Positions 49,876 through 62,799 of a DNA stretch of 64,000 bases are shown one piece after another (position 1 is the stretch's first letter; every line of letters begins with the position of its first letter). The stretch is from assembly GCA_963575745.1 (NCBI GenBank), contig CAUYUJ010000026.1:434001-498000 (forward strand), in the 5' to 3' direction. The DNA is from Prorocentrum cordatum (taxonomy: Eukaryota). The notes beneath the pieces are model-generated. The model saw nothing but the letters and a program-made list of their open reading frames with translations, had not been told where the DNA came from and searched no databases. The position numbers and the translations under genes are program-made.

Positions 49876-50139
49876 CGGGGAACGGGACCTGGGGCCGCCA
49901 GATTGGTGCCTCGGACCCCCATGGGGGCCACGGGGCTCACTTCCCTATGTTTTTACAGGGTTTCGGCGTTCCAGGGCCTCCGAGGGAGGCCGCCAGGAGT
50001 GGACCTGCGCCCCCTGGGGGCTCTGGGGCTCACTTTCCCTGTGTTTTTGCCAGGTTTCCGCGTCCTGGGCCTCGGAGGCCGCCGCTTCCGACCCCCCGTG
50101 GGAGGACGGGGCGGCCGGGGAAGCCCAAAATAGTCCAGG

Positions 50140-51830
50140 AGGGCCTCCAGAGGCTCCCAAGACGGCCCAAGCGGGCCCCGAGTCGCCGAAAGACCGCTCC
50201 AGGACGCCCAAGATAGGCCCAAGACGGCCCGAGAGGCCCCCCAAGGCACTCCACGACGCTTCAAGACGCCTCTCCAGAGCGCTTCAAGAGACCGAAATCG
50301 TAAATTTTACGAAGGTTTTCGTACGATTTTGGCCTTCCAGCCTTTTCGGCCGTCCGACGTCCAAGACGGCTCAATAGGCCCCCAAGAGCGCCCCAAGAGG
50401 GCCCCAAGAGGGCCCCAAGACGGCCCCAGAGTCGCCCAAGACAGCCCAACAGAGCCCCAAGACGGCCCCAAGATGCGCCCAAGAGGGGGACCGGGGGACC
50501 ACGACTCCAAAATTCGACCCTCCCGCTTGAAGAGTGCCCCAGGAGGCTTCAATTAGCCCCCAAGAGGCCCCAGGAGGCCCCCAAGAGGCACCCAGGAGGC
50601 CCCCAAGAGGCACCCAGGAGGCCCAAACGAGGCCTAAAGAGGCAACAAAACAGCCCCGAGGAGGCCCCACAACGGTCCCAAAACGGCTTCCGAGAAGCTG
50701 TGAAACTGCCTTCACGACGTCCCCGACAGGCCAACCACGAGATCCAAACCAACACCCATGAGGCCTCTGACCCACCACCCAGGGCACGGCGGCGGGAGCA
50801 GTGACAGCACTTGTGCACAGCATGTTCCGGCGGGAGCCTTCCGGAACACGCTGCAGGAGGAGGAGGAGGAAGATCAGGAGGAGAGAGAGCTGGAGTGGGA
50901 GGAGGAGGAGGAGGAGGAGGAGGGGGACGAGGAGGAGGAAGAGGCCTCCAAGACAGCTCCAAGATAGCCGAAGAGGCTTCCAAGAGGGCACTGGGCGGCC
51001 CACGAGGGCCCCAAGGCGGTGCCTGAGGCGCCCAAGACGGCCCGAGAGGGCCCCAAGACGGCCCCAAGAGAGGCCCATGAAGGGAAACACGAACTGAGAA
51101 TCCGAGCTTCCTACCCAGAGAGGTTCTCGGGAAGTCCCAAGAGGCCCCCAATCGGATCCAAGAGGCTACCAAGAAGCTCCCAAGAGGGCCGAGAAGGTTG
51201 CAAGAGATCTCCCAAGGTGGCCCCAAGAGGCACAACTCATTGTTTTACGATAGGGCTTTGACGGGTTTTAATGTTTGTCGGCCTTTTGGCATCCCGATGC
51301 TCCAAGACGGCTCAAGAGGCTTCCAATACCGATCCAATATAGAGGAAGAGGGCCCCAAGACGGCCCGCGAGGGCCCAAAGACGGTGCTTGAGGCGCCCAA
51401 GACGCCCCGAGAGGGCCCCAAGAGCCCCAAGAGAGGCCCAAGAAGGGGAACGCGACCCAGCAGCAGAGCGTTCCCCCCAAAAGGCCCACAGGAGGCCGCA
51501 AGAGGCCCCCAAGTGGTCCGACGAGGACCCCAAAAGCTTCCCGAGGGCCCAAAAGGCCCCTAGGAGACGCCCAAGAGGTTTTAAAATAGCCCCAGAGTGC
51601 CCTCGATGCGTCAAAACTGCTTCCAAGAGGCCCCCGGGAGGCTTCCGGATTGCCTCAATCCGGCCGCAGGTGGCCTCAAGTCGGGCCTGCACGCAGCCAA
51701 GACGGCCAATGACGGCTTCAGATTGCAGAGCCGATGCCCCCAAGGGACCCTCAGACGCCCCCCCAAGAGGCACCCAAGAGGTGCCTCCAACAGCCAGTTG
51801 ACGAAGCATGCGGAACACCCCAGAAGCTCC
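50140..51830. repeat. Degenerate CCCCAAGA(CG/GG) repeat family; reverse-orientation tracts at ~11840-12200, 15125-15310, 32130-32520, 33765-34260
   Basis: GCCCCAAGACGG / GCCCCAAGAGG units recur throughout. Confidence 0.85.
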
Positions 51831-51942
51831 TCAGATGCCGTCGCGCGCCTGTGCTTGATAGCGTTGTCCAAGATCGTCCAGCGCCCCCCCAGCCTGGGCT
51901 AGAACCTGAGCGCGCGCGAAGCGCGCGCGATGGTTCTAGTAT

Positions 51943-52026
51943 ATGAACACGTTTACGGTCAATGTGTGGGCGAAGGGGTAATGAGCGAACGTTGGCCGCA
52001 TCAGAATGCATGGCAGCCTTTGTGGC
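51943..52026 (+). repeat. Split direct repeat A1 (84 bp)
   Basis: ATGAACACGTTTACGG...CCTTTGTGGC matches 59679-59762 with one mismatch. Confidence 0.95.
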
Positions 52027-52047
52027 TCAGGGCCTGGGAGGCCTGGG

Positions 52048-52332
52048 ATGCTCCCTGCTTGCGCCACCGCGCTCTCCACCGCCCCGCGGGCCCAGCGGCC
52101 TCGGATCTGCGGCTGGTGCGCTGGGCGCCTCGCCGAGGGCGAGAGTTTGGCCCTCGCGGAGGGCGGGACGTTGTTGGAGGTGTGCGAACTGTGCTACCTC
52201 CTCGCACTGGCGCGCCAGGGGGCGCGCGAGGCGCGGCTGGCGCCGCAGGAGCGGGCGCTGCTCGTCGAGCAGGCGCGGTTGCTGGCGGCGCAGATCACGG
52301 CGCTGTCGACCTTGTCGCCTGATGCCGCCTAA
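52048..52332 (+). CDS. Small upstream ORF (94 aa) of the retroelement with a CxxC-x21-CxxC motif
   Basis: ATG at 52048; MLPAC...RICGWC...VCELCYLL...; its 3' end overlaps the gag start. Confidence 0.4.
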   Translation: MLPACATALSTAPRAQRPRICGWCAGRLAEGESLALAEGGTLLEVCELCYLLALARQGAREARLAPQERALLVEQARLLAAQITALSTLSPDAA

Positions 52333-53940
52333 GGCCAAGGGCAAGGCCAAGGCCAAGGCCAAAGGCAAGGCGAAGGCGAAGGCCCTTCCTGCGCCTCTCG
52401 CTGCCGCCCGCGGGCGAAGCGCTGTCCGTGGCGGAAGACGTGGCGCTCGCGGGCGCGTTGGCGCAGCTGCTGGAGCGGCAGGGGCGCCCGTCGGCCTCGG
52501 AGGCGGCCTCGCGCCCGCAGCTGGAGGTGCAGCTGGCGGGGGGGCTGGAGGTGGCGCTGCTGGGGCGCCAGTGGTGCCGGGGCTCGGCGGCTTCCATGGC
52601 CTGCCTGGAGCCGTCGGCGTGGGCGCCGCGGGCGCCCCCCCCCCTGTCCTCGGGGCGCCTGGCGACGGCGCGGGTGGCGGCGGCGGCGGCGGCGTTGAAG
52701 CGGCGCTGGTTGGGGCGCTGGCCGCTGCAGGCGCTGGCGGTGCTGGAGGCGCGGGCGCGCCGCCTGGCGCTGGGCCCGCGGGGCCGGGCGCTGCCCTCGG
52801 CGTGTTGGGAGGCGCGGTCGTCCCGGCTGCGGGGCTGCAGCTTGGCGGGCTCGTCGACGGGGCCTGGACGCAGGCCTCCACCCTCATCGGGGCCAACTGG
52901 AGCCAGGGCCTGGCCGTGGAGCTGCCGACCCACGAGGCGACGGGGGCGAACAGTGGGACCGCGCTGTTCGAGATCGATGAGGTCGGTGTACCAGGTGCTG
53001 GAGGTCAGTATCTCAGCGCGCAGTTCAGGGGCGCGTCGTTGCCCGCCGAGGCGATGCGCTTTGACGGCGCCTTCCCTCCGCGGGGCGGCGGTCCTGCTGG
53101 GCTGCTGCACCTCTGCGCGCAGGTGCCTGCGCGGTGTGGCGAGCCTGCGCAGGCGGGCCGCGCCGTCCTGCACGTGGAGTGGCTGCGGCTGCGCTCGACC
53201 CACGGGCTGGTGGAGCCCTGGGTGCGCCCGAGCGTCTTCGGCGGCCGTGGCGGTGGAGCTGGTCGAGGCGGTCCCTCTCCCATCCCTGGCGGAGCCGCCG
53301 CCGAACGCCTGGCGGCGGCAGCTGCTGCCCGCGCGCTTGCGGTCGGAGGCGGTGGCAGCCGCGGGGTGACAGGCCGCGGCAGGCGTCGGGCTCGCAGTGA
53401 GTCTGGCAGCCGCAGTGATGGCGAAGGCGAGCCGCGTTTTCGCGACGCCCCCTCTCGCGGCGGCAGCGCGCGGCTGCTGGCGGAGAGGCAGCCTGGCGCC
53501 CTCTACGACGAGGCGATGCAGAACATCGCCCGCGTCATGGGCCTGCGGGAGGGGGCGGACGGTTCCGAGACGAGGCCGAAGGTGGTTGGCTATTTGCAGG
53601 CCATCGTGTTCGGCCACCACCCCGTGTCCCAGCTGCGGGTCAACACGGTGCGGGATCTCCAGACCTTGGCGACGGCGCTGGACCAGTTGGAGAGCGGCTC
53701 TCTGCCGCAGCTGAGCGACGCGTGCTGATGCAAAGGTTCAAGGCTCTGGAGCTCTCGCTGTCGAACGCGGGCTGGCAGGTTGCGAGCGAGCTCGAGATCG
53801 TCCCGGACGTGAGGCCGTCGCTGGCGTCGATGGGCGAGCAGGATCTAGCGCGGCGCTCGGCGCTGCTGAGGAGGCGCTTGGAGGAGGCCAAGAGCCGCGG
53901 GGCCTTCGGGGCGCTCGGCCGCGGCCAGGGGCGCGGGTGA
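52322..53940 (+). pseudogene. Gag-like ORF1 of the YR retrotransposon, frameshifted near 53722
   Basis: It is the first long ORF and starts MPPKAKGKAKAKAK. LATALDQLESGSLPQLSD continues after a frameshift into LMQRFKALELSLSNAGWQVASELE, a helical segment resembling ORF1 of dinoflagellate DIRS-like elements. Confidence 0.65.
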
Positions 53941-54417
53941 CCCGAGGGGGGGGGCGCGGGGGGGCCAGCGGCCGCGCTTCCCCTCTCGAGCCGCGCTCCA
54001 GCCAGCGCGGGAGCTCTCGCGCGGCAAGGGCAAGGGTCGAGGTCGCGGGCGTTTCCGCTACTTCCCGCTCCGAGGGAGCAGCCCCGCTCACGCTCCAGGG
54101 TCGCCAGCGGCAGCGCCTCGGGCCGAGGAGGCACCCGCCGCAGCGCCCTCAGGCCCCCGCGCGCGGACTCCGTCTCCCCAGACGGAGCGGACCCCCCGGG
54201 GAGACAGCCCCCACCCGCGCCGAGTTGTGCTAGCGGGGAGCCCCGAGCGCCGCACCTTCAGGCAGGACGAGCCAGCGGCGGCGGCGTCGGCTCCCCAGGG
54301 AGCAGGACGCGGTCGCCCGAGACGCCGCGGCGGCAGGGGACGCAACGCAGGGAGGGCCAACGGCTCGCGGCCCCGCCCGCCTGGCGGCCGCGGGACTGGC
54401 CCCCCGGCGGCGGCGCG

Positions 54418-56254
54418 GTGAAAGCCCGCGGTGACGATGCCCTTGCTGATGACGCCCGGGCCGCAGCAGCCGCTTCGTTGCAGGCTGCTGCGCCGTGCGG
54501 ACCGCCTGGGGCTTCGCCGTCGCGTTCGCTATCTGACCGCTGCGCTGCGACCCCGCTGCAGTTGCCGCCTGCCACTGCTGATGAGAACTCTTCTCGACAC
54601 GATCCACTGGAGGACTGGAGAGAGCTTACTGGGGCTGCTGGTGACTTGGTCCGTGAGCCTTATGACGTGGGCCCGATCCTTCTCAACCTCGTCAAGGATT
54701 TCCCTGGTTCGTTCGGTCGCTACGTCCGCGTCTCCCTCAAACCTCAGCTGCGCGAGCACATGGCCACCATGGGAGGTCGGCTGCAACGTGACTTGCTGCC
54801 GTTACCGTACCCTACCATCGTGAAGACCGACGTCGCGCGCGACGGCGATGACCTTAACGACTTGGACTGGGGGGCGCCCCACTGCAGGCTGGTTGCCACG
54901 GTGCTGGCGCTCAACGGGGAGGCAGGCTTCCGCTCGCTGAAGTTCGCGCGCCTCTGCCGCAGGCGCCCGAGCGCTGCTCAGCGGGCAGCCTTGGCTGCCC
55001 TGGGTCGCCCCCTGTACCTGGCGACGCGCATCGAGACCAGCCTGCCTGCAGAGCTCAACTGGGAGGACCGCCTGAAGGACCGCAAGATCGGCTACGGCGG
55101 CGCCGAGATCACCGCGCCTCATGTGCTGACCGTGGAGCAGGTGCTGGACGGCTTGCCGCCGCCTGGGGTTGCGGCCTCGATTGAGGCTGCCGAGGTCGCG
55201 ACGGGCTTCGTGCGCGACTCGTTGCTGGGCTCTGGGCTGGTGCTGCTGCCGCCTGCGCTGAGCCGTGCGGCGCCGACTTCGGTGCGGGCCCACGACGCCC
55301 CTGTCAAGTGCGAGGACGGGGTGCTGAGGCCCGTGCTCAGGCTCATCTCCAATCTGGTCCCGTCGAACGCCTGCCAAGAGTGCATCATTGGCGACGCGCC
55401 CGAGATGCCGACGATGAGCCAGCTGAACGGCCTGGTCTTGACGGAGTCTGAGGACTTGGTGTGGAGCGGCGCCGACATGAAGGCCTTCTTCTACGCCTTC
55501 CGCGCGCCGCCGCCGTGGTGGCCGTACATGGGGATTGGGCCGCCAGCGCCGTCGCGCCTACTGGGTCTCAAGGACGGCGGCACTACCCACATCTGCCTGC
55601 GCGTGATCGGCATGGGCTGGTTCAGCGCGGCGGGGGTCACGACTCATCTTCATCGCGACACACTGCGTCGCAGCAGCGCGGTGCCTCGCGGCCTGTGCCC
55701 CGGCTTGGAGATTACCCGGCGCCGCCGCCTGCCGCTTGGTGCAGAGAAGCCCTGCCCGCCTGCCTGGATGATGATCGACAACTTAGAGATCGCCGAGGCC
55801 GTCGACAAATCTGAGGCCGACAAAGCTGCGCGGGACGGTCCCCGAGCTGCTGTCTGACGCCCGTGCCTGCTACGAGGCCACGAGGTCGCCTGGGTCCCCA
55901 GGCAAGGACCTGCACCGCGTGGTGCGCGCTACCACGCTGGGCGAGCTTGTTGATGGCGTTGAAGGTGTCCGTCGGCCGCCGGCGGGATACATTGCTGCGA
56001 AGGCCAATTTCGCGCTCTGGGTTCTGGGCAAGAGGCGGGCCAGCATGCAATTGAAACGTGTTCTTCCTGGGCGCTGGGGTCGCGGGCACTGCGTCCGCCG
56101 CCCTCTGGCCGCAAGCTTCGCTTACACTTGGGAGTGGCTCAACGACCCGCGCTGTGGAGGCCGCTTCAGCGTGAGCGTGATCGAGGACTTGCTGATGTGC
56201 CTGGCCTTGTCGGGGCTCTGCGTGGTCGACATGAGGCTCGAGGTCGACCACCTG
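54418..56254 (+). pseudogene. Reverse transcriptase (DIRS-type) and tether region, frameshifted near 55830-55920
   Basis: Motifs RLISNLVPSN, WSGADMKAFFYAF, LRVIGMGWFSA and a degenerate YxDD-equivalent MIDN; the downstream frame has TTLGELVDG...GRW...RRPL. Confidence 0.85.
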
Positions 56255-56300
56255 GTGGCGGCCTCGGACGCGTCGGAGGCCGCTGGAGCCGTGGTGTACA
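56255..56300 (+). pseudogene. RNase H N-terminal catalytic strand (SDAS motif)
   Basis: VAASDASEAAGAVV is the DIRS-type (T/S)DAS motif. A TACA duplication at 56297-56304 shifts the frame; removing it reads into STALTERG and the DNMT. Confidence 0.8.
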
Positions 56301-56384
56301 TACAGCACGGCGCTTACCGAGCGCGGGCGCGTCGTCGCGGGCAGGCGCCAGCGGCCCGCGAACGCCGCCCGCGAGGAGGAGACC

Positions 56385-57383
56385 GCCCTGATCACCGTCT
56401 TTGACGGCATCGGCGGCGGGCGCGGAGCCTTCGTGATACTGGGCCTGGTACCAGCGGTTCGCCTGTCGTTTGAGGTTGACCCGCAGGCGGTCCGCGTTGC
56501 GCGGCGCGCTTATCCTGACACGCAGCACCTCGGGGATGTTACATCTGCTGACCCCGCTGCCTTGGCTAGCCTACTGCGGGCCCGCGGCCGCATCGCCCGC
56601 GCGGTGATCATCGGCGGCTTCCCGTGCCAGATCTACACGAGCTTGAACGTCGACCGCAAGGGCTCGTCGGACTCGCGCGCCTCGCTGGTCGATCACATGG
56701 CGAGGGTCATCCGAGGTCTGCGTGCAGCCATGCCCGAGGTGAGCGTTGACTTCCTTGGCAACAATGTTGCATCAATGGCCGAGTCCGACGTCCTTCACCT
56801 CAGCGGGTTGTTCGAGCGGACCCCCTTGGAGGTTGAGGCTGGTGACGTCGGCTGGGTGAGGCGTCCTCGTCTCTCCTGCCCGTCCTGGGACTTGCTGCCG
56901 TCGTACGAGGCCAAGACCGTGATGGTGCTGACCAAGGACGGGGCCTCTCGCCGCCTGTGCCGCGCGTCGCTGGAGGTGGAGCGCCCGCCGCTGGAGGAGT
57001 GGCTGCCGGCTGGCGCGCGCTGTCCTGGAGCGGAGGGGGACGCGCCCCTCCCAACGCTCGCTCGTTGGACTCTGCACTCGCAGCCGCGCCCCAGGCCCGC
57101 GGGCATCGGGGAGTGCACGGCTGCTGAGATAATGCGCTGGGAGGAGGCGGCCTTCGCGGCGCCGCCCTACCAGTTCCGTGACAAGTGGTGCATTCATTGG
57201 CCTGACGGACGGATCGCGCCTCCTGGCGCGGTGATGAGGGAGAAGCTGATGGGCTTCGCCGAAGGCCACACCGTGCCGTGCAGGACCAGCAGTGAGGCGG
57301 AGGCCGAGCCCGTCAAGTACGAGGGATTGAGGCGTTCGCTGGTCGGCAACTCGTTCCAGTGCGTGGTGGTGGCGTGGCTGCTG
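56385..57383 (+). CDS. DNMT3-like C5 cytosine DNA methyltransferase domain within the retroelement pol
   Basis: Motif I FDGIGG (56400-56417, in frame upstream of the track ORF), EVDP, GDV, motif IV GGFPCQ (56613-56630), motif VI FLGNNVASM (ENV altered), motif VIII RRPRL, motif IX EKLMGFAEGHT, motif X RRSLVGNSF. Confidence 0.92.
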
Positions 57384-57632
57384 GCGCACTGGGCTGTCGC
57401 TGCTGGGCTGCTGGTGGCGGTGCCGCCGTTCTCCGAGCTGCACGAGAGCGCTCGGGCCTGGGTTGGCGGGCGCAAGCTGTGGGCTGGCGACGTCACCTCG
57501 CTGCGACGCAGCCGTGCGAAGGTCGGCTCGGAGGTCTGCGGCGAGCTGGTGGCCCGCAGCGCAGCCGCATCGAGCGAACGCCAGCGGGCGGGTGAGCGGC
57601 CCGCCGCGGCGGCGCCGGCGACGGGCGGCAGC

Positions 57633-57866
57633 CTCGTCTACGTCGTGCGCGGCTCACGGCGCTGGAGCCTCGCCCCGTCCTGTTTCGGCAACCCGTTCGC
57701 AGTGAGCCCGAGCTACTCCCGCGAGGACGCGGTGGCGCTGTTTGCTGGATGGCCGCGCGGCCAGCCCGAGCTGCTTCGCCACCTGGGGGACTTGCGTGGG
57801 GCCAAGCTGGTTGGCCACTGCAATCAGTCCGAGACATGTGATGCAGATGTGTTGCTTGCAGAGCTG
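57633..57866 (+). CDS. DUF4326-like domain, in frame after the DNMT
   Basis: LVYVVRG...SCFGNPF...REDAVALF..W...LLRHLGDLRGAKLVGHC...CDADVL fits the DUF4326 pattern VYIGR..S.WGNPF..R..A...L.GK.L.C.C...CHADVL. Confidence 0.72.
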
Positions 57867-58021
57867 GCCAGACAGGATGCTACGTCTTGGCGTGATCCGG
57901 ATGTCTCGCGTGAGCTGGTGACTAGTCTTGCGATGGCGTGCCACGGTGATGGTGCGAACCTTCATTGTGACAAAAGCTCTGAGGAGCAGGTCTTTGGCAG
58001 TGGCGTAAGGCACGAGAGCTG

Positions 58022-58321
58022 GTGTGGGATCTCCCTGAACATATCCATGTGCTGGAGTGCCAGGGAGCGCTGATGATGATTCGATGGCGTGCTCAAGCTT
58101 TGGGCCGACAGCAGCGAGTCTTCTTGCACCTCCTCGACAGCATGGTCAACGTCGGTGCGCTCTCGAAGCGCCGCCCCAGCAGCAGTCAGCTCAGCAAGGT
58201 TGCGCGCAGCTTCTCGGCCTGTGAGCTAGCGATGGGCGCGCGGGCGGTGTTCAGCTTCACCTCATCAGCTCGGAACCCCGCGGGCGCGCCGTCGCGCCTG
58301 AAGCATGGGGAAGCAATCTAG
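58022..58321 (+). pseudogene. RNase H C-terminal part (DIRS-type)
   Basis: EHIHVLE, LHLLDSMV, LSKRRPSS and NPAGAPSR (canonical NPADxPSR); out of frame with the upstream DNMT/DUF4326 ORF. Confidence 0.85.
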
Positions 58322-59246
58322 CCCCGCCGACAGGCGCACAACCAGAGCTGGCCTTGGGAAGCTGCGGGATGCCCGGATCGGCGCTGCCACTCTCGCCAGA
58401 TATCGCCGGGCAGCCCAGCAGTTTGTTGACTACCTTAACGCCATGAGTCTGCCGTTGCCGTTCAGTTGGGAAGACATGGATGTCACATTACAAGACTACC
58501 TTGAATACTTGTGGGCCGAGGGTGCCACTAAAGGTCAAGCTAACGATACACTGAGTGGAGTACAGCACCTGTTGAGGACGCGCCGGCAGTGCCCAGGCGC
58601 GTGGAGATTGCTGTCAGTCTGGGGGCGCCTAGAGGTGCCGCAGCGTGCGCCACCGATGCCGCCGCTGGTGTGCAGCGCGCTCGCAGGCTGGGCGCTGGGC
58701 CGCGGAGAGATCGCCTTCGCCGCGACGATCCTCGCCGGCTTCCACCTCTGCCTTCGGACAGGCGAGGCTCTCGGCCTCTCCAGCGGCGTCATTCAGCTCA
58801 AGCCTTGCGGCAGAGGCGTGGTGTCGTTGCCCTGGACTAAGACAGCCTGTCAGAAGGGAGCACGAGAGACGGTGACGCTGGATGACCCGCTCGTAGGAGC
58901 AGTCGTCCATATGCAGCTGCAGCGTGACGGCCGTCCGTGGCCCTCGCCTCCTCGTGCCTTTCATTTGCTTTTTCGCACTGGCCTTCGAGAGATTGGTTGC
59001 GCGCATCTCGGCCTCGTCCCGTATAGTTTGCGTGGAGGCGGAGCTACGCACGAATATTTGTTCTCAGGCGACTTGCCTAAAGTGATGCTTCGAGGTCGTT
59101 GGAGCTCAATGAGGACAGCAAAGATTTATATTCAAGATGGGGCCGCAATTTTGGCCGAGATGCGATTTCAGCCTGCCGCCCGTTCCTCGTTCCAGACCTT
59201 CTCAGATACCTTGATTGCCCGTGTTCGGGCGCATTGTAGCAAATAA
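58305..59246 (+). CDS. Tyrosine recombinase of the retroelement (313 aa, intact ORF)
   Basis: TLARYRRA N-terminal helix, LCLRTGE (catalytic R), LPWTKT (K), PYSLRGGGAT, RGRWSS...AKIYI (W, catalytic Y); overlaps the RNase H end. Confidence 0.93.
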   Translation: MGKQSSPADRRTTRAGLGKLRDARIGAATLARYRRAAQQFVDYLNAMSLPLPFSWEDMDVTLQDYLEYLWAEGATKGQANDTLSGVQHLLRTRRQCPGAWRLLSVWGRLEVPQRAPPMPPLVCSALAGWALGRGEIAFAATILAGFHLCLRTGEALGLSSGVIQLKPCGRGVVSLPWTKTACQKGARETVTLDDPLVGAVVHMQLQRDGRPWPSPPRAFHLLFRTGLREIGCAHLGLVPYSLRGGGATHEYLFSGDLPKVMLRGRWSSMRTAKIYIQDGAAILAEMRFQPAARSSFQTFSDTLIARVRAHCSK

Positions 59247-59358
59247 CCTCGAATCTAGGCCAGGTGCGACTCTCCAGGGAGCTTGTGGGCGGCTTTCAGC
59301 CATATTTCGGAACACCTTGGAGAGCTTTTTGGAGAGCTTTTCGGGTGTTCTTGGAGTG

Positions 59359-59678
59359 GAGAGCTTCTCTCGGGCTTTTGGGCACAGCGTGGTGCGAGTC
59401 TGCTCCCTCTCGAGGCCCACTTGGGACGGCGTTCTGACCCCGGTCGTTGGACGACGGTGGTACACTTGAGGTGTGATTCCTGCCGTGGCCTCGGGGTGAG
59501 TCTTGGGGCTCGCACATGCTGGTGCCGTTGTCCCGAGGCATTCGAAGCTCTGTCAACAGCTTTGGCCAACGAGTAGAGGGAGTAAGAAGGGGCGAAGCCC
59601 AGGGTGAGTGTTCAACGTGAGTTGTGGCTCCCCCTTTATTCCCGATGAGCTACCGCTCTAACCCCCGCCTGCACACAC
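59359..59678 (+). repeat. Split direct repeat B1 (320 bp)
   Basis: Matches 59839-60158 at an exact offset of 480 bp; about 6 mismatches counted by eye. Confidence 0.95.
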
Positions 59679-59762
59679 ATGAACACGTTTACGGTCAATG
59701 TGTGGGCAAAGGGGTAATGAGCGAACGTTGGCCGCATCAGAATGCATGGCAGCCTTTGTGGC
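59679..59762 (+). repeat. Split direct repeat A2 (84 bp)
   Basis: Copy of 51943-52026, directly abutting B1. Confidence 0.95.
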
Positions 59763-59838
59763 CCGCCCACATCCGCCCTGTGCCATGCCGTCCAGGCATC
59801 TTCTCTGCCTGGCCGTTCTGCCTCGTTCAGCGTCTCGC

Positions 59839-60151
59839 GAGAGCTTCTCTCGGGCTTCGGGGCACAGCGTGGTGCGAGTCTGCTCCCTCTCGAGGCCCAC
59901 TTGGGACGGCGTTCTGACCCCGGTCGTTGGACGACGGTGGTACACTTGAGGTGTGATTCCTGCCGTGGCCTCGGGGTGAGTCATGGGGCTCGCACATGCT
60001 GGTGCCGTTGTCTCGAGGCATTCGAAGCTCTGTCAACAGCTTTGGCCAACGAGTAGAGGGAGTGAGAAGGGGCGAAGCCCAGAGTGAGTGTTCAACGTGA
60101 GTTGTGGCTCCCCCTTTATTCCCGATGAGCTACCGCTCTAACCCCCGCCTG

Positions 60152-60158
<7 letters not shown>
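59839..60158 (+). repeat. Split direct repeat B2 (320 bp), right end of the element
   Basis: Copy of 59359-59678; runs into a (CA)n(TA)n microsatellite. Confidence 0.95.
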
Positions 60159-60193
<35 letters not shown>

Positions 60194-61728
60194 CATATGT
60201 ATACTTATGTGTGTGAGGTTTGGATGTATGCATTGCCTTCATTTCAGCAGGAAGATGCGTGCACGAGTGTACGCGACGCCGCAGGGGCAATAGTACAACA
60301 TTGACAGCCAGTCGCCGTCCATCCACTTAGTGGATGGAAGCTCTGAAGAAGGACTGCCCGCGAGACCGAGGCGAGAGCTCGGTTTCTCGAGAAATATGAA
60401 GCTGCCACTCTTCATCCCTGTAGCCATTGGATGTTCTTTGGGGCTTCAGGATGGCTGTGAGGAGGTCCCCTGGTGGATCTCTCAGCAGCCCACCCTGCCA
60501 ATACGTCTGGCGCTGAGACAGGGAGTACGAAGGGGAGGATTACGAAGGGAGAGGGAAGGAGGAAAAAGAGACAGGCTGGGGGAGGGAACAAGAGCGATGG
60601 ACGGGGATGCGGGTGAGGTGGGGCATGGCTTTCAGGCGATCCTAATTGTTGGGGAATCGTATCCGGGAAGGGGGAGGATAGGCGACGGAGGACAAGGAGG
60701 TGAGTGGGTTGAGCAGGAGAAGGAGGGAGAGGGGGCGGACAACTGATTGGATTCCCTCTCAACCTTTCAGATCAAGCTAACACCGTCAAAGCATTATTTC
60801 CCTCCGCCTCGCCCTCCTTCAGCACAGTGGAAAGGAGCCTGCCTGCAAACAGGCCACCCCCATGGAAATGTCTTACACCCTTGCGGTGCGGGAGGCGCAT
60901 TGGGATTCTGGGTCCCCTCACGAGGTTCCCCTGGAGGTCTCACTGCCGGATTTCTCCTGGTCACCCTCGAGCACCTCTTCCTCCCTCTCCCCCGAGTTGC
61001 CATGAAGGACAAGGGTTCCCCAGGGAGACGGGACCTAGATCCGGGGCCTTCCTCCAGGACCAGCTTCTCATCCTCGAGCGTTTTGTTGACGGCCCCCGGG
61101 CCCGTGGAGAGCCCGTGGAGGGCCCAGAAGCAACAGACAGCCACCAGGACCCCCTCATGGTAGGTCCCTCGAGTGCCGTATCACGCGGTGGCCCCCAGTG
61201 CTACAGAGGCCCCGCCCCCGGAGGCAGAGAGCCAGGACGCAGTTCGGGGCTCAAGAGACACGGAGGTCACTCCGATCGGGGGTCGGTCAGAGCGCCGGGT
61301 CTTGCAGGATTCTGCAGGGCCAGGGTTGCATCGACTCGGCTCGGGTGCGGGACCCTGCAGAATGTTGCAGGATCCTGCAAAGCTTAGCAGCTTGACTGAC
61401 CTGGGCTTGGATTGACCCGGTCAGTAGATCCCCGAAACAGTTTGCTGCCGTGATCTGTCCGCGTCGACGGGAGAAGTGGGGCTCCTGCGCGATGGCAGGC
61501 GATCCGTAAGGTGAGCACCCCGCTCAGGGCGCTCAGGGCCCCCGTGGCCCCGCGCCACCTCCCGGGGGGGCGGGGGGGCGGCGGCCCACGGTGGAGCGTT
61601 CGCCTCTTGGTGCAGCGGAACTCGCTCCTTGCGCGGTCGCGGGAGGGTGGGGGTGGAGTGGGGGGGGGGGCGGGGAGGAGCAGGAGGAGGAGGCTTGCTG
61701 CTGGGGGTCCGTGCCCCCGAAGCTCAGA

Positions 61729-62053
<325 letters not shown>

Positions 62054-62799
62054 TCGACTTGCTGCGTGGTCGCAGGAGGAGGGCCCAAGCATTTGGCGGA
62101 TGGAGTTTTGTCACCAGTCGTGCCTTTTCGGTTCCGACATCCGGGGGGCAGTTTCCGGACCTCGGGTGCATCACAATTATTCTGGGCTGGAAAGAGATTT
62201 CTGGGGATGTGGATTCCCCCAGAGGCTATACATCGGGTGTCTGGGGGTGGCGGAGGGTTCTCAGGAGATCTCCAGGACTTCTGAGGGCTGAAGCGGAGAG
62301 CGAGACGGAGGAGAAGGAGGAGGAGGGGGAGGTGAAGGAGGAGGAGGAGGAGGAGGAGGAGCAAGGAAGGCAGGAGGAGGAAGGAGAGGGGAGGGAAGAA
62401 GGCCTCCCTGTGTCATCCCCCCCGTCGTCGCGCTCGTCGGCCCCACCAACGGCCACAACGAGCCATTTTCCGAAAGATCCCCTCCCTGCCGCACGGCAGA
62501 GAGGGGGTACAGGCTTCGGGGCAGTACAGACCGAAAAACAGCCGTCAGCAGCAGCAGCAGCACCAGTGGGAGGAAGGAGGAAGGAGGAGGATTAAGAGGA
62601 ACGGGAGGAGGAGCAGAGTTCTGAGTGAAGGAGCTTCCCTGGGCAGGACTGGCCTGCAGGGTTGGTCGGAGATCCGGCTGCTTGACCGGACATGATTACC
62701 CTGAGCCCCCCCCGCCAGACATCATTACCGGGATGCCGCGGCCATCGCCTTCGAAGGGACATGCGTTGAGCCTCTTCCGTTTCCTGGCGGCGCGCCGAC

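What the first reader, a model, noticed from the sequence alone, without database searches (positions are those of the whole stretch)
57633..57866. DUF4326-like domain as a passenger in a eukaryotic retroelement pol
Seen: VYVVRG, FGNPF, REDAV, LRGAKLVGHC and CDADVL match the DUF4326 signature, although the usual CxC and CH residues read GHC and CD here. Known: DUF4326 is uncharacterised and, to my knowledge, mainly phage and bacterial. Inference: in-frame fusion to a DNMT gives a contextual hint that it acts on nucleic acids or modified bases, for example as an accessory or reader module.
Basis: partly seen in the sequence, partly recalled or inferred. Interest (0 to 1): 0.72.

Follow-up and report, generated by a model that had tools for sequence, protein, structure and literature searches.

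The report
DUF4326 module in dinoflagellate retrotransposon
A small enzyme-like domain otherwise known from phages and giant viruses really is built into the copying protein of a methylase-carrying jumping gene of a dinoflagellate, as an optional add-on gained once by one branch of that family, although the copy in this window is dead.

Summary
Window 57636-57857 encodes a DUF4326 domain (Pfam 38.1 bits against a cut-off of 25; alignment-based model pLDDT 88, matching DUF4326 proteins of giant viruses). It lies in one stop-free frame with a Dnmt3-type methylase inside an 8.2-kb DIRS-like retrotransposon (A1-coding-B1-A2-B2 repeats, recombinase ORF). The nearest proteins are from Prorocentrum cordatum.

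The domain is an optional cassette. It is present in one clade of DIRS-Dnmt3 pols (11 of 11 rows, one gain on the tree) and cleanly absent from Symbiodinium-type and other relatives. Where present it is as conserved as the RT core, and C-x-C...C-H is kept in most copies. It also occurs in other retroelement-like polyproteins.

The window copy is decayed: three frame-breaking indels, and G17V, C73G and H82D in the domain.

The function is not shown. My best reading is a Cys/His-loop enzyme acting on ribose- or phosphate-linked groups on the element's nucleic acids, beside the methylase and RNase H. This is a new variant of a known kind (SymbioDIRS-Dnmt3), of moderate interest. This scan had already noted DUF4326 inserted in phage polymerases on other DNA.

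The parts
51943..52026 (+). Terminal repeat A1 of the element
   Evidence: 84 nt, 98.8% identical to 59679-59762
51947..53940 (+). Gag-like ORF1 region, split over two frames (51947-53728 and 53419-53940)
   Evidence: ORF list. The N-terminal part of the P. cordatum model P0019 shares its strings by eye. No family match.
53941..55857 (+). Pol, RT-like part (frame 1), with motifs GADMKAFFY 55468-55494, VIGMGWFSA 55603-55629 and MIDNLEI 55771-55791
   Evidence: Motifs located. No Pfam match even at E<=10. Atlas lead for the equivalent part of P0065: score 0.93 to a cluster in which 12% of members carry RVT_1. Other copies lack 1 nt at 55822, where the frame changes.
56261..56299 (+). ASDASEAAGAVVY, read as the first RNase H motif (frame 2)
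   Evidence: Read by motif only. The columns are invariant in A7 and A8. The N-terminal-third RNase H HMM is not significant. Other copies lack 4 nt at 56297, where the frame changes.
56391..57430 (+). Dnmt3-type C5 cytosine methyltransferase domain (motif I 56397-56420, PC 56613-56630, motif VI reads NNV 56754-56774, GNSFQ 57345-57362)
   Evidence: PF00145 E 6.3e-6. Family profile against PDB: DNMT3A E 4.5e-18. Coordinates.
57633..57866 (+). DUF4326 domain (Pfam envelope 57636-57857), carrying G17V, C73G and H82D
57986..57987 (+). Site where other copies carry about 33-34 more letters (encoding ..GKVF.RQE.D..); the window frame changes here
   Evidence: table 5c: four contigs in three runs. 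Relatives read ...GK[IV][FY]PRQE[IM]D....
57983..58321 (+). Rest of RNase H (frame 2): HIHVLECQ 58040-58063, LLDSMVN 58130-58150, RNPAGAPSRL 58271-58300
   Evidence: An HMM of seven contiguous RNase H domains matches this part of 12 of 12 related pols, at model positions about 47-153 only. Coordinates.
58302..59246 (+). Tyrosine recombinase ORF (314 aa stop to stop)
   Evidence: BLASTP E 5e-29 to residues 1810-2116 of P0238, a part that Pfam calls Phage_integrase (E 3.8e-6). Atlas score 0.99 to clusters in which 27-31% of members carry PF00589. No direct Pfam, NCBIfam or PDB match.
59359..59679 (+). Repeat B1
   Evidence: 321 nt, 98.1% identical to 59839-60159
59679..59762 (+). Repeat A2
59839..60159 (+). 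Repeat B2, right end of the element

Best explanation
The segment is a genuine DUF4326 domain. It sits in the pol protein of a DIRS-like, tyrosine-recombinase retrotransposon that also carries a Dnmt3-type cytosine methylase, the kind described as SymbioDIRS-Dnmt3. The nearest proteins are from Prorocentrum cordatum.

Shown here:
1. The element is bounded by split direct repeats A1-coding-B1-A2-B2 (51943-60159).
2. DNMT and DUF4326 are one continuous coding unit in this copy and in 7 of 7 aligned relatives.
3. DUF4326 is a discrete cassette of roughly 95-125 residues between the end of the methylase and the later RNase H motifs. It is present in one clade of these pols and exactly missing in the others, which fits a single gain.
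4. Within that clade it is conserved like the RT core and keeps Y-x-G-R-G, G-N-P-F and C-x-C-x(4-6)-C-H-x-D.
5. The window copy is a decayed member. Compared with other copies it has +1 nt at 55822, +4 nt at 56297 and about 34 nt fewer at 57987. It also has G17V, C73G and H82D in DUF4326, ENV to NNV in the methylase and NPAD to NPAG in RNase H.

Inferred:
- The methylase plus DUF4326 are lodged inside the RNase H domain, after its first Asp motif.
- DUF4326 is a small enzyme. Its Cys/His loop, lying between a strand and a helix as in Cys-phosphatase and rhodanese active sites, handles a phosphate or ribose-linked group.
- Tethered to RT, RNase H and the methylase, it acts on the element's own RNA or cDNA, either on a blocked or modified end or on a base adduct such as ADP-ribose or phosphoribose, and not on free metabolites.

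The exact substrate is unknown.
For: Domain identity.

Element: repeats; DNMT3A as the best solved relative of the family profile, E 4.5e-18; recombinase by transitive homology. The A-coding-B-A-B layout and DNMT inside pol are as in de Mendoza et al. 2018 (PMC5890265, passages read).

Cassette nature: alignment A8 shows P0228, P0231 and P0232 aligned on both sides with the block missing. 13 of 19 related DNMT pols scanned lack PF14216 at E<=0.01, including five 'Skav' models. Metagenome loci L001-L005 jump from query residue about 1060-1080 (892 in L005) to about 1163-1231, and the linkers translated for L001-L004 show no DUF4326 motif.

Single gain: 11 of 11 DUF4326-bearing rows form one side of a branch, SH-aLRT 99, with 1 change on a 23-row tree from which most DUF4326 columns were dropped.

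Constraint: identity of P0065 to the P. cordatum copies is 44.3% in DUF4326, against 47.4% in the RT core and 43.9% in the DNMT N-half. The flanking linkers give 23.7% and 33.4%. C-x-C...C-H is kept in 20 of 27 P. cordatum models, counting P0101 which I read by eye, and in 16 of 17 environmental ones.

Decay of this copy: together with the invariant columns.

Enzyme and nucleic-acid context: weak Pfam overlap with DUF488 at the Cys loop. RapZ-C, rhodanese-like and phosphatase chains are among the weak VIA matches. Published predictions are in PMC9503650 and PMC7824862 (passages). Fusions to three classes of methylase, NADAR and the DarT1-type NADAR, RusA and AAA_25 are seen. DUF4326 is the only part that aligns between two otherwise unlike retroelement polyproteins (hhalign probability 99.1, E 4e-19).
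Against: No activity, ligand or substrate is shown for any DUF4326.

No solved structure matches convincingly. Foldseek against PDB gave nothing at E<=1e-3. The best VIA Z is 4.7, to YbiA/NADAR, and phosphatases score only 2.5-2.8. The loop is C-x5-C-H, not the C-x5-R of Cys-phosphatases. Three Cys plus one His could equally be a zinc site.

The module is dispensable for this type of element: many relatives lack it. A sub-lineage seen in the window and P0172 carries G17V and C73G; the closely related P0003 shows G17V but ends before the Cys motif.

RT and RNase H are not recognised by Pfam, NCBIfam or PDB sequence searches. The RNase H N-terminal motif is read by eye only: the best HMM hit at that site has E 1.2. 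The rhodanese-phosphatase placement beyond the passage in PMC9503650 rests on my recall of Burroughs and Aravind 2023, which I could not open.
Confidence: 0.5

Rival explanations
1. DUF4326 in the pol is a non-catalytic zinc-binding module. It acts as a nucleic-acid or modified-base binder (reader or adaptor) that positions the methylase or RNase H on the cDNA. The C-x-C...C-H residues are metal ligands, not an active site.
For: Three Cys and one His are the most conserved residues: 55, 56, 54 and 53 of the 56 other sequences. That pattern is typical of zinc sites (established knowledge). The domain is only about 85 residues, with few secondary-structure elements. No phosphatase or rhodanese structure matches above Z 3.6. 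RapZ-C, among the weak matches, is known to me as an RNA and sugar-phosphate binding domain (recalled).
Against: Other near-invariant polar residues (R18, N32-P33, R42, D84) look more like a substrate pocket than a simple metal knuckle. The published analyses predict an enzyme (PMC9503650, PMC7824862; passages). Frequent fusion to hydrolases of ADP-ribose (NADAR, and Macro according to those papers) suits a pathway enzyme.
Confidence: 0.2
2. The module works as in viruses, on free NAD+- or ADP-ribose-derived small molecules. It removes a terminal phosphate from an ADPr derivative, for example, and so blunts a host nucleotide-signal defence during retrotransposition. This function would be independent of the methylase.
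For: This is the explicit prediction for the viral versions (PMC9503650, passage read). Fusions to NADAR, DarT1-type NADAR and SLOG are seen here. The best BFVD matches are giant-virus proteins.
Against: In the retroelements it is never seen with NADAR, Macro or SLOG. It is always embedded next to DNA-acting domains, placed between methylase and RNase H in the 7 aligned relatives. The same domain is fused to Dam and C5 methylases, RusA and a helicase-type ATPase elsewhere. No NAD-based defence against retroelements is known to me in dinoflagellates (recalled).
Confidence: 0.15
3. The domain is a neutral hitch-hiker. A captured host or viral exon is carried along by an active element lineage and does nothing for it.
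For: Many related elements do without it. A sub-lineage with changes at two highly conserved positions exists in at least two copies. The window copy has lost a third.
Against: It is retained with its motifs across a clade whose members are only about 42% identical overall. Its conservation equals that of the RT core and exceeds that of its flanking linkers. Independent presence in at least two other polyprotein architectures, including a tandem pair, is hard to square with neutrality.
Confidence: 0.1

Closest known systems
SymbioDIRS-Dnmt3 retrotransposons of Symbiodinium (de Mendoza et al. 2018, PMC5890265; passages read)
   Same: DIRS-type element with A-coding-B-A-B repeats, a Dnmt3-type methylase inside pol and a separate tyrosine recombinase ORF. 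S. kawagutii-type ('Skav') proteins are detectable relatives at 32-36% identity over the methylase part.
   Different: This lineage carries an extra DUF4326 cassette after the methylase. The paper's main text has 0 occurrences of 'DUF', and the five Skav models scanned lack PF14216. Pfam does not recognise RT, RNase H or the recombinase here, whereas the paper names RVT_1, RNase_H and Phage_integrase hits. I saw neither the figures nor the supplements of that paper, so a domain drawn there but not named in the text would have escaped me.
DUF4326 (PF14216) of phages and giant viruses, as discussed by Aravind's group (PMC7824862, PMC9503650; passages read)
   Same: The sequence family and the predicted fold are the same. 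It has the same habit of being fused to or inserted into DNA-handling proteins, including R-M or methylase components.
   Different: Here the host protein is the pol of a eukaryotic retrotransposon and the partner is a eukaryotic-type Dnmt3. None of the NAD/ADPr domains (Macro, SLOG, NADAR) accompanies it in the retroelements examined.
RapZ-C / DUF488 / Cys-phosphatase-rhodanese domains
   Same: The domain has a strand, Cys-containing loop and helix arrangement. There is sub-threshold to marginal Pfam overlap with DUF488 and DUF488-N3a at that loop. RapZ-C scores Z 3.3, a rhodanese-like domain Z 3.6 and phosphatases Z 2.5-2.8.
   Different: All structural scores are below the level the tool calls meaningful. 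The loop is C-x5-C-H, not C-x5-R. The name of the clade is recalled from Burroughs and Aravind 2023, which I could not read.

Membership tests
Pfam PF14216 (DUF4326) | Score above the curated gathering threshold of the family model | tested here: met
   38.1 bits (whole frame) and 42.4 bits (peptide) against a cut-off of 25
Pfam PF14216 (DUF4326) | Same predicted fold as other DUF4326 proteins | tested here: met
   Model pLDDT 88.3. Six BFVD matches at E<=1e-3, five named DUF4326 and one named NADAR domain with protein tyrosine phosphatase, TMq 0.65-0.73.
Pfam PF14216 (DUF4326) | Full set of family-conserved residues (Y-x-G-R-G, G-N-P-F, C-x-C...C-H-x-D). This is not a formal criterion; it is taken as a proxy for an active copy. 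| tested here: not met
   The window copy deviates at 3 of the 18 positions conserved at 80% or more: G17V, C73G and H82D. Relatives keep them. It is therefore a member by descent, but this copy is probably inactive.
DIRS-like retrotransposons of the SymbioDIRS-Dnmt3 kind | Split direct repeats A1-internal-B1-A2-B2 | tested here: met
   A: 84 nt at 98.8% identity. B: 321 nt at 98.1% identity. B1 abuts A2.
DIRS-like retrotransposons of the SymbioDIRS-Dnmt3 kind | Tyrosine recombinase instead of a DDE integrase | tested here: met
   No direct Pfam, NCBIfam or PDB match. The ORF aligns at E 5e-29 to the part of P0238 that Pfam calls Phage_integrase. Atlas lead 0.99.
DIRS-like retrotransposons of the SymbioDIRS-Dnmt3 kind | Reverse transcriptase and RNase H in pol | tested here: inconclusive
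   No Pfam match at E<=10. RT motifs were read by eye. Atlas score 0.93 to a cluster in which 12% of members carry RVT_1. The RNase H C-terminal two thirds match an HMM built here from other retroelement-like proteins in 12 of 12 relatives, but that HMM's own sources were identified by motif and by weak PDB hits only (E 0.045-0.14).
DIRS-like retrotransposons of the SymbioDIRS-Dnmt3 kind | Dnmt3-type C5 methylase inside pol | tested here: met
   PF00145 E 6.3e-6. The family profile finds DNMT3A and 3B first (E about 1e-18), then DRM2, then M.HhaI.
Rhodanese-phosphatase superfamily | Rossmann-like fold with a catalytic Cys loop (C-x5-R) between a strand and a helix | tested here: inconclusive
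   A strand-loop-helix with an invariant Cys is present, but the loop ends in C-H, not R. Structural matches are weak, Z 2.5-3.6. Foldseek against PDB gave nothing.

The most novel reading that the evidence does not exclude
DUF4326 is a general de-blocking enzyme that mobile genomes tether to their polymerases. In this reading it removes a host-imposed or side-reaction group (ADP-ribose, phosphoribose or a terminal phosphate) from template, primer or nascent DNA. Protist retroelements would then have captured it several times: once into the RNase H/Dnmt3 unit of a DIRS lineage, and separately into at least two other polyprotein types, one of them with a tandem pair. That would make retrotransposon cDNA a target of nucleic-acid ADP-ribosylation-type immunity in eukaryotes.
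Probability: 0.2. Interest if true: 0.75.

Novelty: new variant of a known kind. Interest (0 to 1): 0.5.

Why it matters
DNMT-bearing DIRS elements of dinoflagellates are known. A second captured module of viral type, conserved next to the methylase and apparently lodged within RNase H, is not in the papers I could search. The term 'DUF4326' occurs in 9 papers. None is about dinoflagellates or retroelements, judging by their titles and by the passages I read in five of them.

The finding gives a eukaryotic, polymerase-tethered context for a widespread domain whose activity nobody has measured. There are natural with-and-without comparisons in sister elements, and a yeast methylation assay already exists for these DNMTs (PMC5890265). 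That makes the function of DUF4326 more directly testable.

The window copy itself is an ordinary dead transposon copy.

Tried and rejected
- No whole genome is held for this window, so copy counts and dN/dS could not be computed. The window holds only one copy.
- The single-sequence fold was poor, pLDDT 48.5, and was not used.
- Foldseek against PDB gave nothing at E<=1e-3. VIA wide gave a best Z of 4.7 to YbiA/NADAR, below the tool's level of trust. A DUF4326 profile against PDB sequences gave only chance-level rows.
- Pfam, NCBIfam and PDB sequence searches did not recognise RT, RNase H or the recombinase.
- The idea that the N-terminal 'FAG...PPC...' domain of the other DUF4326-bearing polyproteins is a C5 methylase was not established. 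The only PDB hit was DNMT2 at E 0.89 over the PPC motif. Pfam found no DNMT. hhalign against the DIRS-Dnmt3 alignment gave probability 0.16.
- An HMM of the RNase H N-terminal third did not significantly find the SDAS site: best E 1.2 in P0017 and 12 in P0228, both at that site.
- Complex prediction of the DNMT part with the DUF4326 part of P0065 returned no verdict, score 0.01.
- The look-up of sequencing runs listed no RNA holder, so nothing can be said on expression.
- Rfam scan of 51000-60600 found no ribozyme or other family above its threshold. There were only sub-threshold miRNA-model hits on a palindromic low-complexity stretch at 60149-60233.
- Burroughs and Aravind 2023 is not held.
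- Cluster look-ups of the nearest non-P. cordatum DUF4326 proteins gave no names, so the donor of the module is unknown.
The pol alignment was used instead.

Full report
**1. The observation**

The window between 56235 and 58073 is one stop-free frame of 612 codons. Pfam places PF14216 (DUF4326) on residues 468-541, which is nt 57636-57857, with E 2.5e-9 and 38.1 bits against a cut-off of 25. It places PF00145 (C-5 DNA methylase) on residues 53-162 with E 6.3e-6. The 101-residue peptide alone scores 42.4 bits.

An exhaustive phmmer search of 1.84 billion representatives gives 365 proteins at E<=1e-3, 13 of them at E<=1e-10. Of the 50 longest hits that I scanned, 47 carry PF14216; two of the other three are repeat proteins and one is a degenerate relative.

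A single-sequence fold was useless, with pLDDT 48.5. A model built on a 57-row alignment reached pLDDT 88.3 and pTM 0.76. Its six BFVD matches at E<=1e-3 are giant-virus proteins, five named DUF4326 and one named NADAR domain with protein tyrosine phosphatase, with TMq 0.65-0.73.

**2. The element around it**

GC content is 60-75%. The nearest proteins are gene models of Prorocentrum cordatum: 13 of 14 hits, the best at 82% identity. No genome is held for the window.

Two repeat pairs bound the element. A is 51943-52026 and 59679-59762 (84 nt, 98.8% identical). B is 59359-59679 and 59839-60159 (321 nt, 98.1% identical). This gives A1-coding-B1-A2-76 nt-B2. That is the arrangement de Mendoza et al. 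[quoted passage not shown]

A profile of the family finds DNMT3A and 3B as the best solved relatives (E about 1e-18), ahead of plant DRM2 and M.HhaI. The downstream ORF 58302-59246 has no direct Pfam, NCBIfam or PDB match. It does align at E 5e-29 with the C-terminal part of an S. kawagutii-type model, P0238, a part that Pfam calls Phage_integrase. The Atlas gives a 0.99 lead to integrase-bearing clusters.

RT is seen only by motif and by a 0.93 Atlas lead. Pfam finds nothing even at E<=10.

**3. This copy is decayed**

The pol runs through frames 1, 2, 3 and 2 in turn. Contigs of three public DNA runs, laid at 90% likeness or more, differ from the window in the following ways:
- 1 nt fewer at 55822 (14.4 of 21.8 depth in X1);
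- 4 nt fewer at 56297 (19 of 19);
- about 33-34 more letters at 57987 (four contigs in three runs), encoding the ...GKVF.RQE.D... stretch that the protein relatives also have;
- C instead of G at 57840, which turns the window's GAT (Asp) into CAT (His) (13.7 of 13.7 in X1, 2.1 of 2.1 in X2).

The three indels sit exactly where the window changes frame, so in other copies the pol is one reading frame. These contigs are other copies or strains. They do not show whether the window's own version is real or an assembly error.

Within DUF4326 the window deviates at 3 of the 18 positions that are at least 80% conserved in the other 56 sequences: G17V, C73G and H82D. G17V and C73G are shared with the P. 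cordatum model P0172. P0003 shares G17V but ends before the Cys motif. These two changes therefore mark a sub-lineage, while H82D is private to the window.

The window also reads:
- NNV where the family has the invariant ENV of methylase motif VI;
- NPAG where the family has NPAD in RNase H;
- MIDN where the family has YIDN in RT.

**4. DUF4326 is an optional cassette, gained once and then kept**

Seven aligned relatives (P0065, an environmental 1355-residue ORF on a 7.7-kb contig; P0062; and five P. cordatum models) all have DNMT followed by DUF4326. In them Y-V-G-R-G and C-H-C...C-H-A are invariant.

A search with the methylase part of P0065 returned 29 proteins. Of the 19 that I scanned, 5 carry PF14216 and 13 carry PF00145 without it. 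Those 13 include five 'Skav' models and the environmental P0228, P0231 and P0232. One has neither.

In the alignment, P0228, P0231 and P0232 match on both sides and simply lack the block from just before VYVGRG to just after CHA[DE]VL. Five of the six metagenome loci found with the pol alignment behave the same way: they match up to the end of the methylase and resume after the cassette. The linkers that I translated for four of them show no DUF4326 motif.

I built a 23-row tree from 11 DUF4326-bearing and 12 DUF4326-less pols. I left out P0062 (a fragment), P0237 (fused to another gene model) and further near-duplicates. Most DUF4326 columns fell below the 60% fill filter. On this tree the 11 bearers form one side of a branch with SH-aLRT 99, and one change suffices. 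The root is at the midpoint only.

Between P0065 and the P. cordatum copies, identity is 44.3% in DUF4326, 47.4% in the RT core and 43.9% in the catalytic half of DNMT. It is 23.7% and 33.4% in the two flanking linkers. C-x-C...C-H is kept in 20 of 27 P. cordatum models. Of the rest, three are variant and four lack the region; P0101 was counted after reading it. The motif is kept in 16 of 17 environmental proteins.

**5. Where it sits**

In the relatives and, frame changes aside, in the window the order is as follows: RT motifs, then ...V(S/A)SDASE.AGAV..., the methylase, DUF4326, and finally G.W.W....W....HIN.LE, LLDS and NPAD.PSR.

An HMM that I built from seven contiguous RNase H-like domains of other DUF4326-bearing polyproteins matches the last part in 12 of 12 relatives. 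It does so only over model positions about 47-153 of about 155. The first third of RNase H is therefore not there.

The SDAS site upstream of the methylase is where that third would be expected. It is the best hit of an N-third HMM in 2 of the 12 relatives, but at E 1.2 and 12, which is not significant. I therefore read the methylase plus DUF4326 as lodged inside RNase H, as an inference.

**6. It recurs in other retroelement-like proteins**

A profile of nine retroelement-type DUF4326 segments found 76 longer proteins. 18 are P. cordatum models. Many others are 870-1350-residue ORFs on 3-8.5-kb environmental contigs. Those I read have RT-like F/YxDD motifs and RNase H-like motifs downstream of DUF4326. 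One group gives weak PDB hits to RNase HI (E 0.045) and to a foamy-virus PR-RT-RNase H (E 0.1). P0166 has two DUF4326 domains in tandem.

Between these polyproteins and the DIRS-Dnmt3 pols, hhalign reports only the DUF4326 block, with probability 99.1 and E 4e-19. Their N-terminal 'FAG...PPC' domain could not be shown to be a methylase.

One P. cordatum model, P0103, has DUF4326 upstream of the RT motif C and the methylase. It is a partial gene model and I did not check it further.

**7. What it may do**

No DUF4326 has a measured activity, to my knowledge and in the 9 papers that hold the term. I read passages in five of them.
- Iyer et al. [quoted passage not shown]
- Iyer et al. [quoted passage not shown]
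- I recall, but could not read, Burroughs and Aravind 2023 defining a RapZ-C/DUF488/DUF4326 clade with predicted DNA-end processing roles.

My data are compatible with these predictions but weak. There is marginal Pfam overlap with DUF488 at the Cys loop. VIA Z is 3.3 to RapZ-C, 3.6 to a rhodanese-like domain and 2.5-2.8 to phosphatases. The top rows are YbiA/NADAR at Z 4.7 and 4.1. All of these are below the level the tool trusts, and Foldseek against PDB found nothing.

Context is the stronger guide. In this data set the domain is fused to C5 methylases (7 of 76), class I methylases (2), a Dam methylase (1), NADAR and DarT1-type NADAR, RusA and a helicase-type ATPase. In the retroelements it is wedged between a DNA methylase and RNase H. 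Earlier notes of this scan, which I did not check, report the same domain inserted into phage DNA and RNA polymerases.

I therefore commit, at about even odds, to the following reading. DUF4326 is a Cys/His-loop enzyme that acts on a phosphate- or ribose-linked group on the element's own nucleic acids, beside the methylase.

The rivals are a zinc-binding reader or adaptor (0.2), action on free ADPr-type signals as proposed for viruses (0.15), and a neutral hitch-hiker (0.1). The last is weakened by sections 4 and 6. It is helped by the many relatives without the cassette and by the sub-lineage with altered G17 and C73.

**8. Verdict**

The thing is a new variant of a known kind: a DIRS-Dnmt3 retrotransposon lineage with an added, conserved, viral-type DUF4326 cassette. 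UniProt already labels several of the P. cordatum models 'DUF4326 domain-containing protein', but I found no paper that discusses it. The figures and supplements of the 2018 paper were not seen.

The window copy itself is dead. Interest is moderate. The value lies in the natural with-and-without series and in a testable link between DUF4326 and polymerase- or methylase-bound nucleic acids.

Noticed in passing
window 56261-56299 and 58040-58300: The methylase (and DUF4326) appear to be inserted inside the RNase H domain. The first Asp motif (SDAS) lies upstream of the DNMT, and the E, D and D motifs (HINVLE, LLDS, NPAD) lie about 580 codons downstream. DUF4326-less relatives and metagenome loci show the same split.
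   Followed up: partly
proteins P0056, P0178, P0181, P0184, P0188, P0201, P0203, P0166: Other long environmental polyproteins with RT-like and RNase H-like motifs carry DUF4326 after an N-terminal 'FAG...PPC...E(N/H)P' domain of unknown family. P0166 has two DUF4326 domains in tandem. The only hint for the N-terminal domain is a DNMT2 match at E 0.89 over the PPC motif.
   Followed up: partly
window 57642-57644 and 57813-57815; proteins P0172, P0003: YVVRG and GHC (instead of YVGRG and CHC) are shared by the window and P0172. P0003 shares YVVRG but ends before the Cys motif. A sub-lineage with two altered conserved residues therefore exists in more than one copy.
   Followed up: partly
window 55771-55791; alignment A7: The RT motif C of this whole family reads Y-I-D-N (consensus YIDNLEI) rather than the usual Y-x-D-D. 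The window copy reads M-I-D-N.
   Followed up: no
protein P0103 (P. cordatum, partial model): Here DUF4326 (residues 251-326) lies upstream of the RT motif C and of the methylase (563-670), a different position from the rest of the family. This could be a second arrangement or a gene-model artefact.
   Followed up: no
window 50100-51500: Upstream of the element lies a long array of imperfect 10-11-nt periodic CCCAAGAGGGC-like repeats (families D1 and D2). They give open frames on both strands.
   Followed up: no
window 60149-60233 and 61700-62100: A palindromic low-complexity stretch just after repeat B2 hits several miRNA models below their thresholds on both strands. Further on there are long (TG/CA)n and GCGTGCGT-type microsatellites.
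   Followed up: no
window 51943-52026 vs 59679-59762; 59359-59679 vs 59839-60159: The terminal repeats are 98-99% identical although the coding region carries three frame-breaking indels and several lost catalytic residues. This suggests that an already defective copy was mobilised or duplicated.
   Followed up: no
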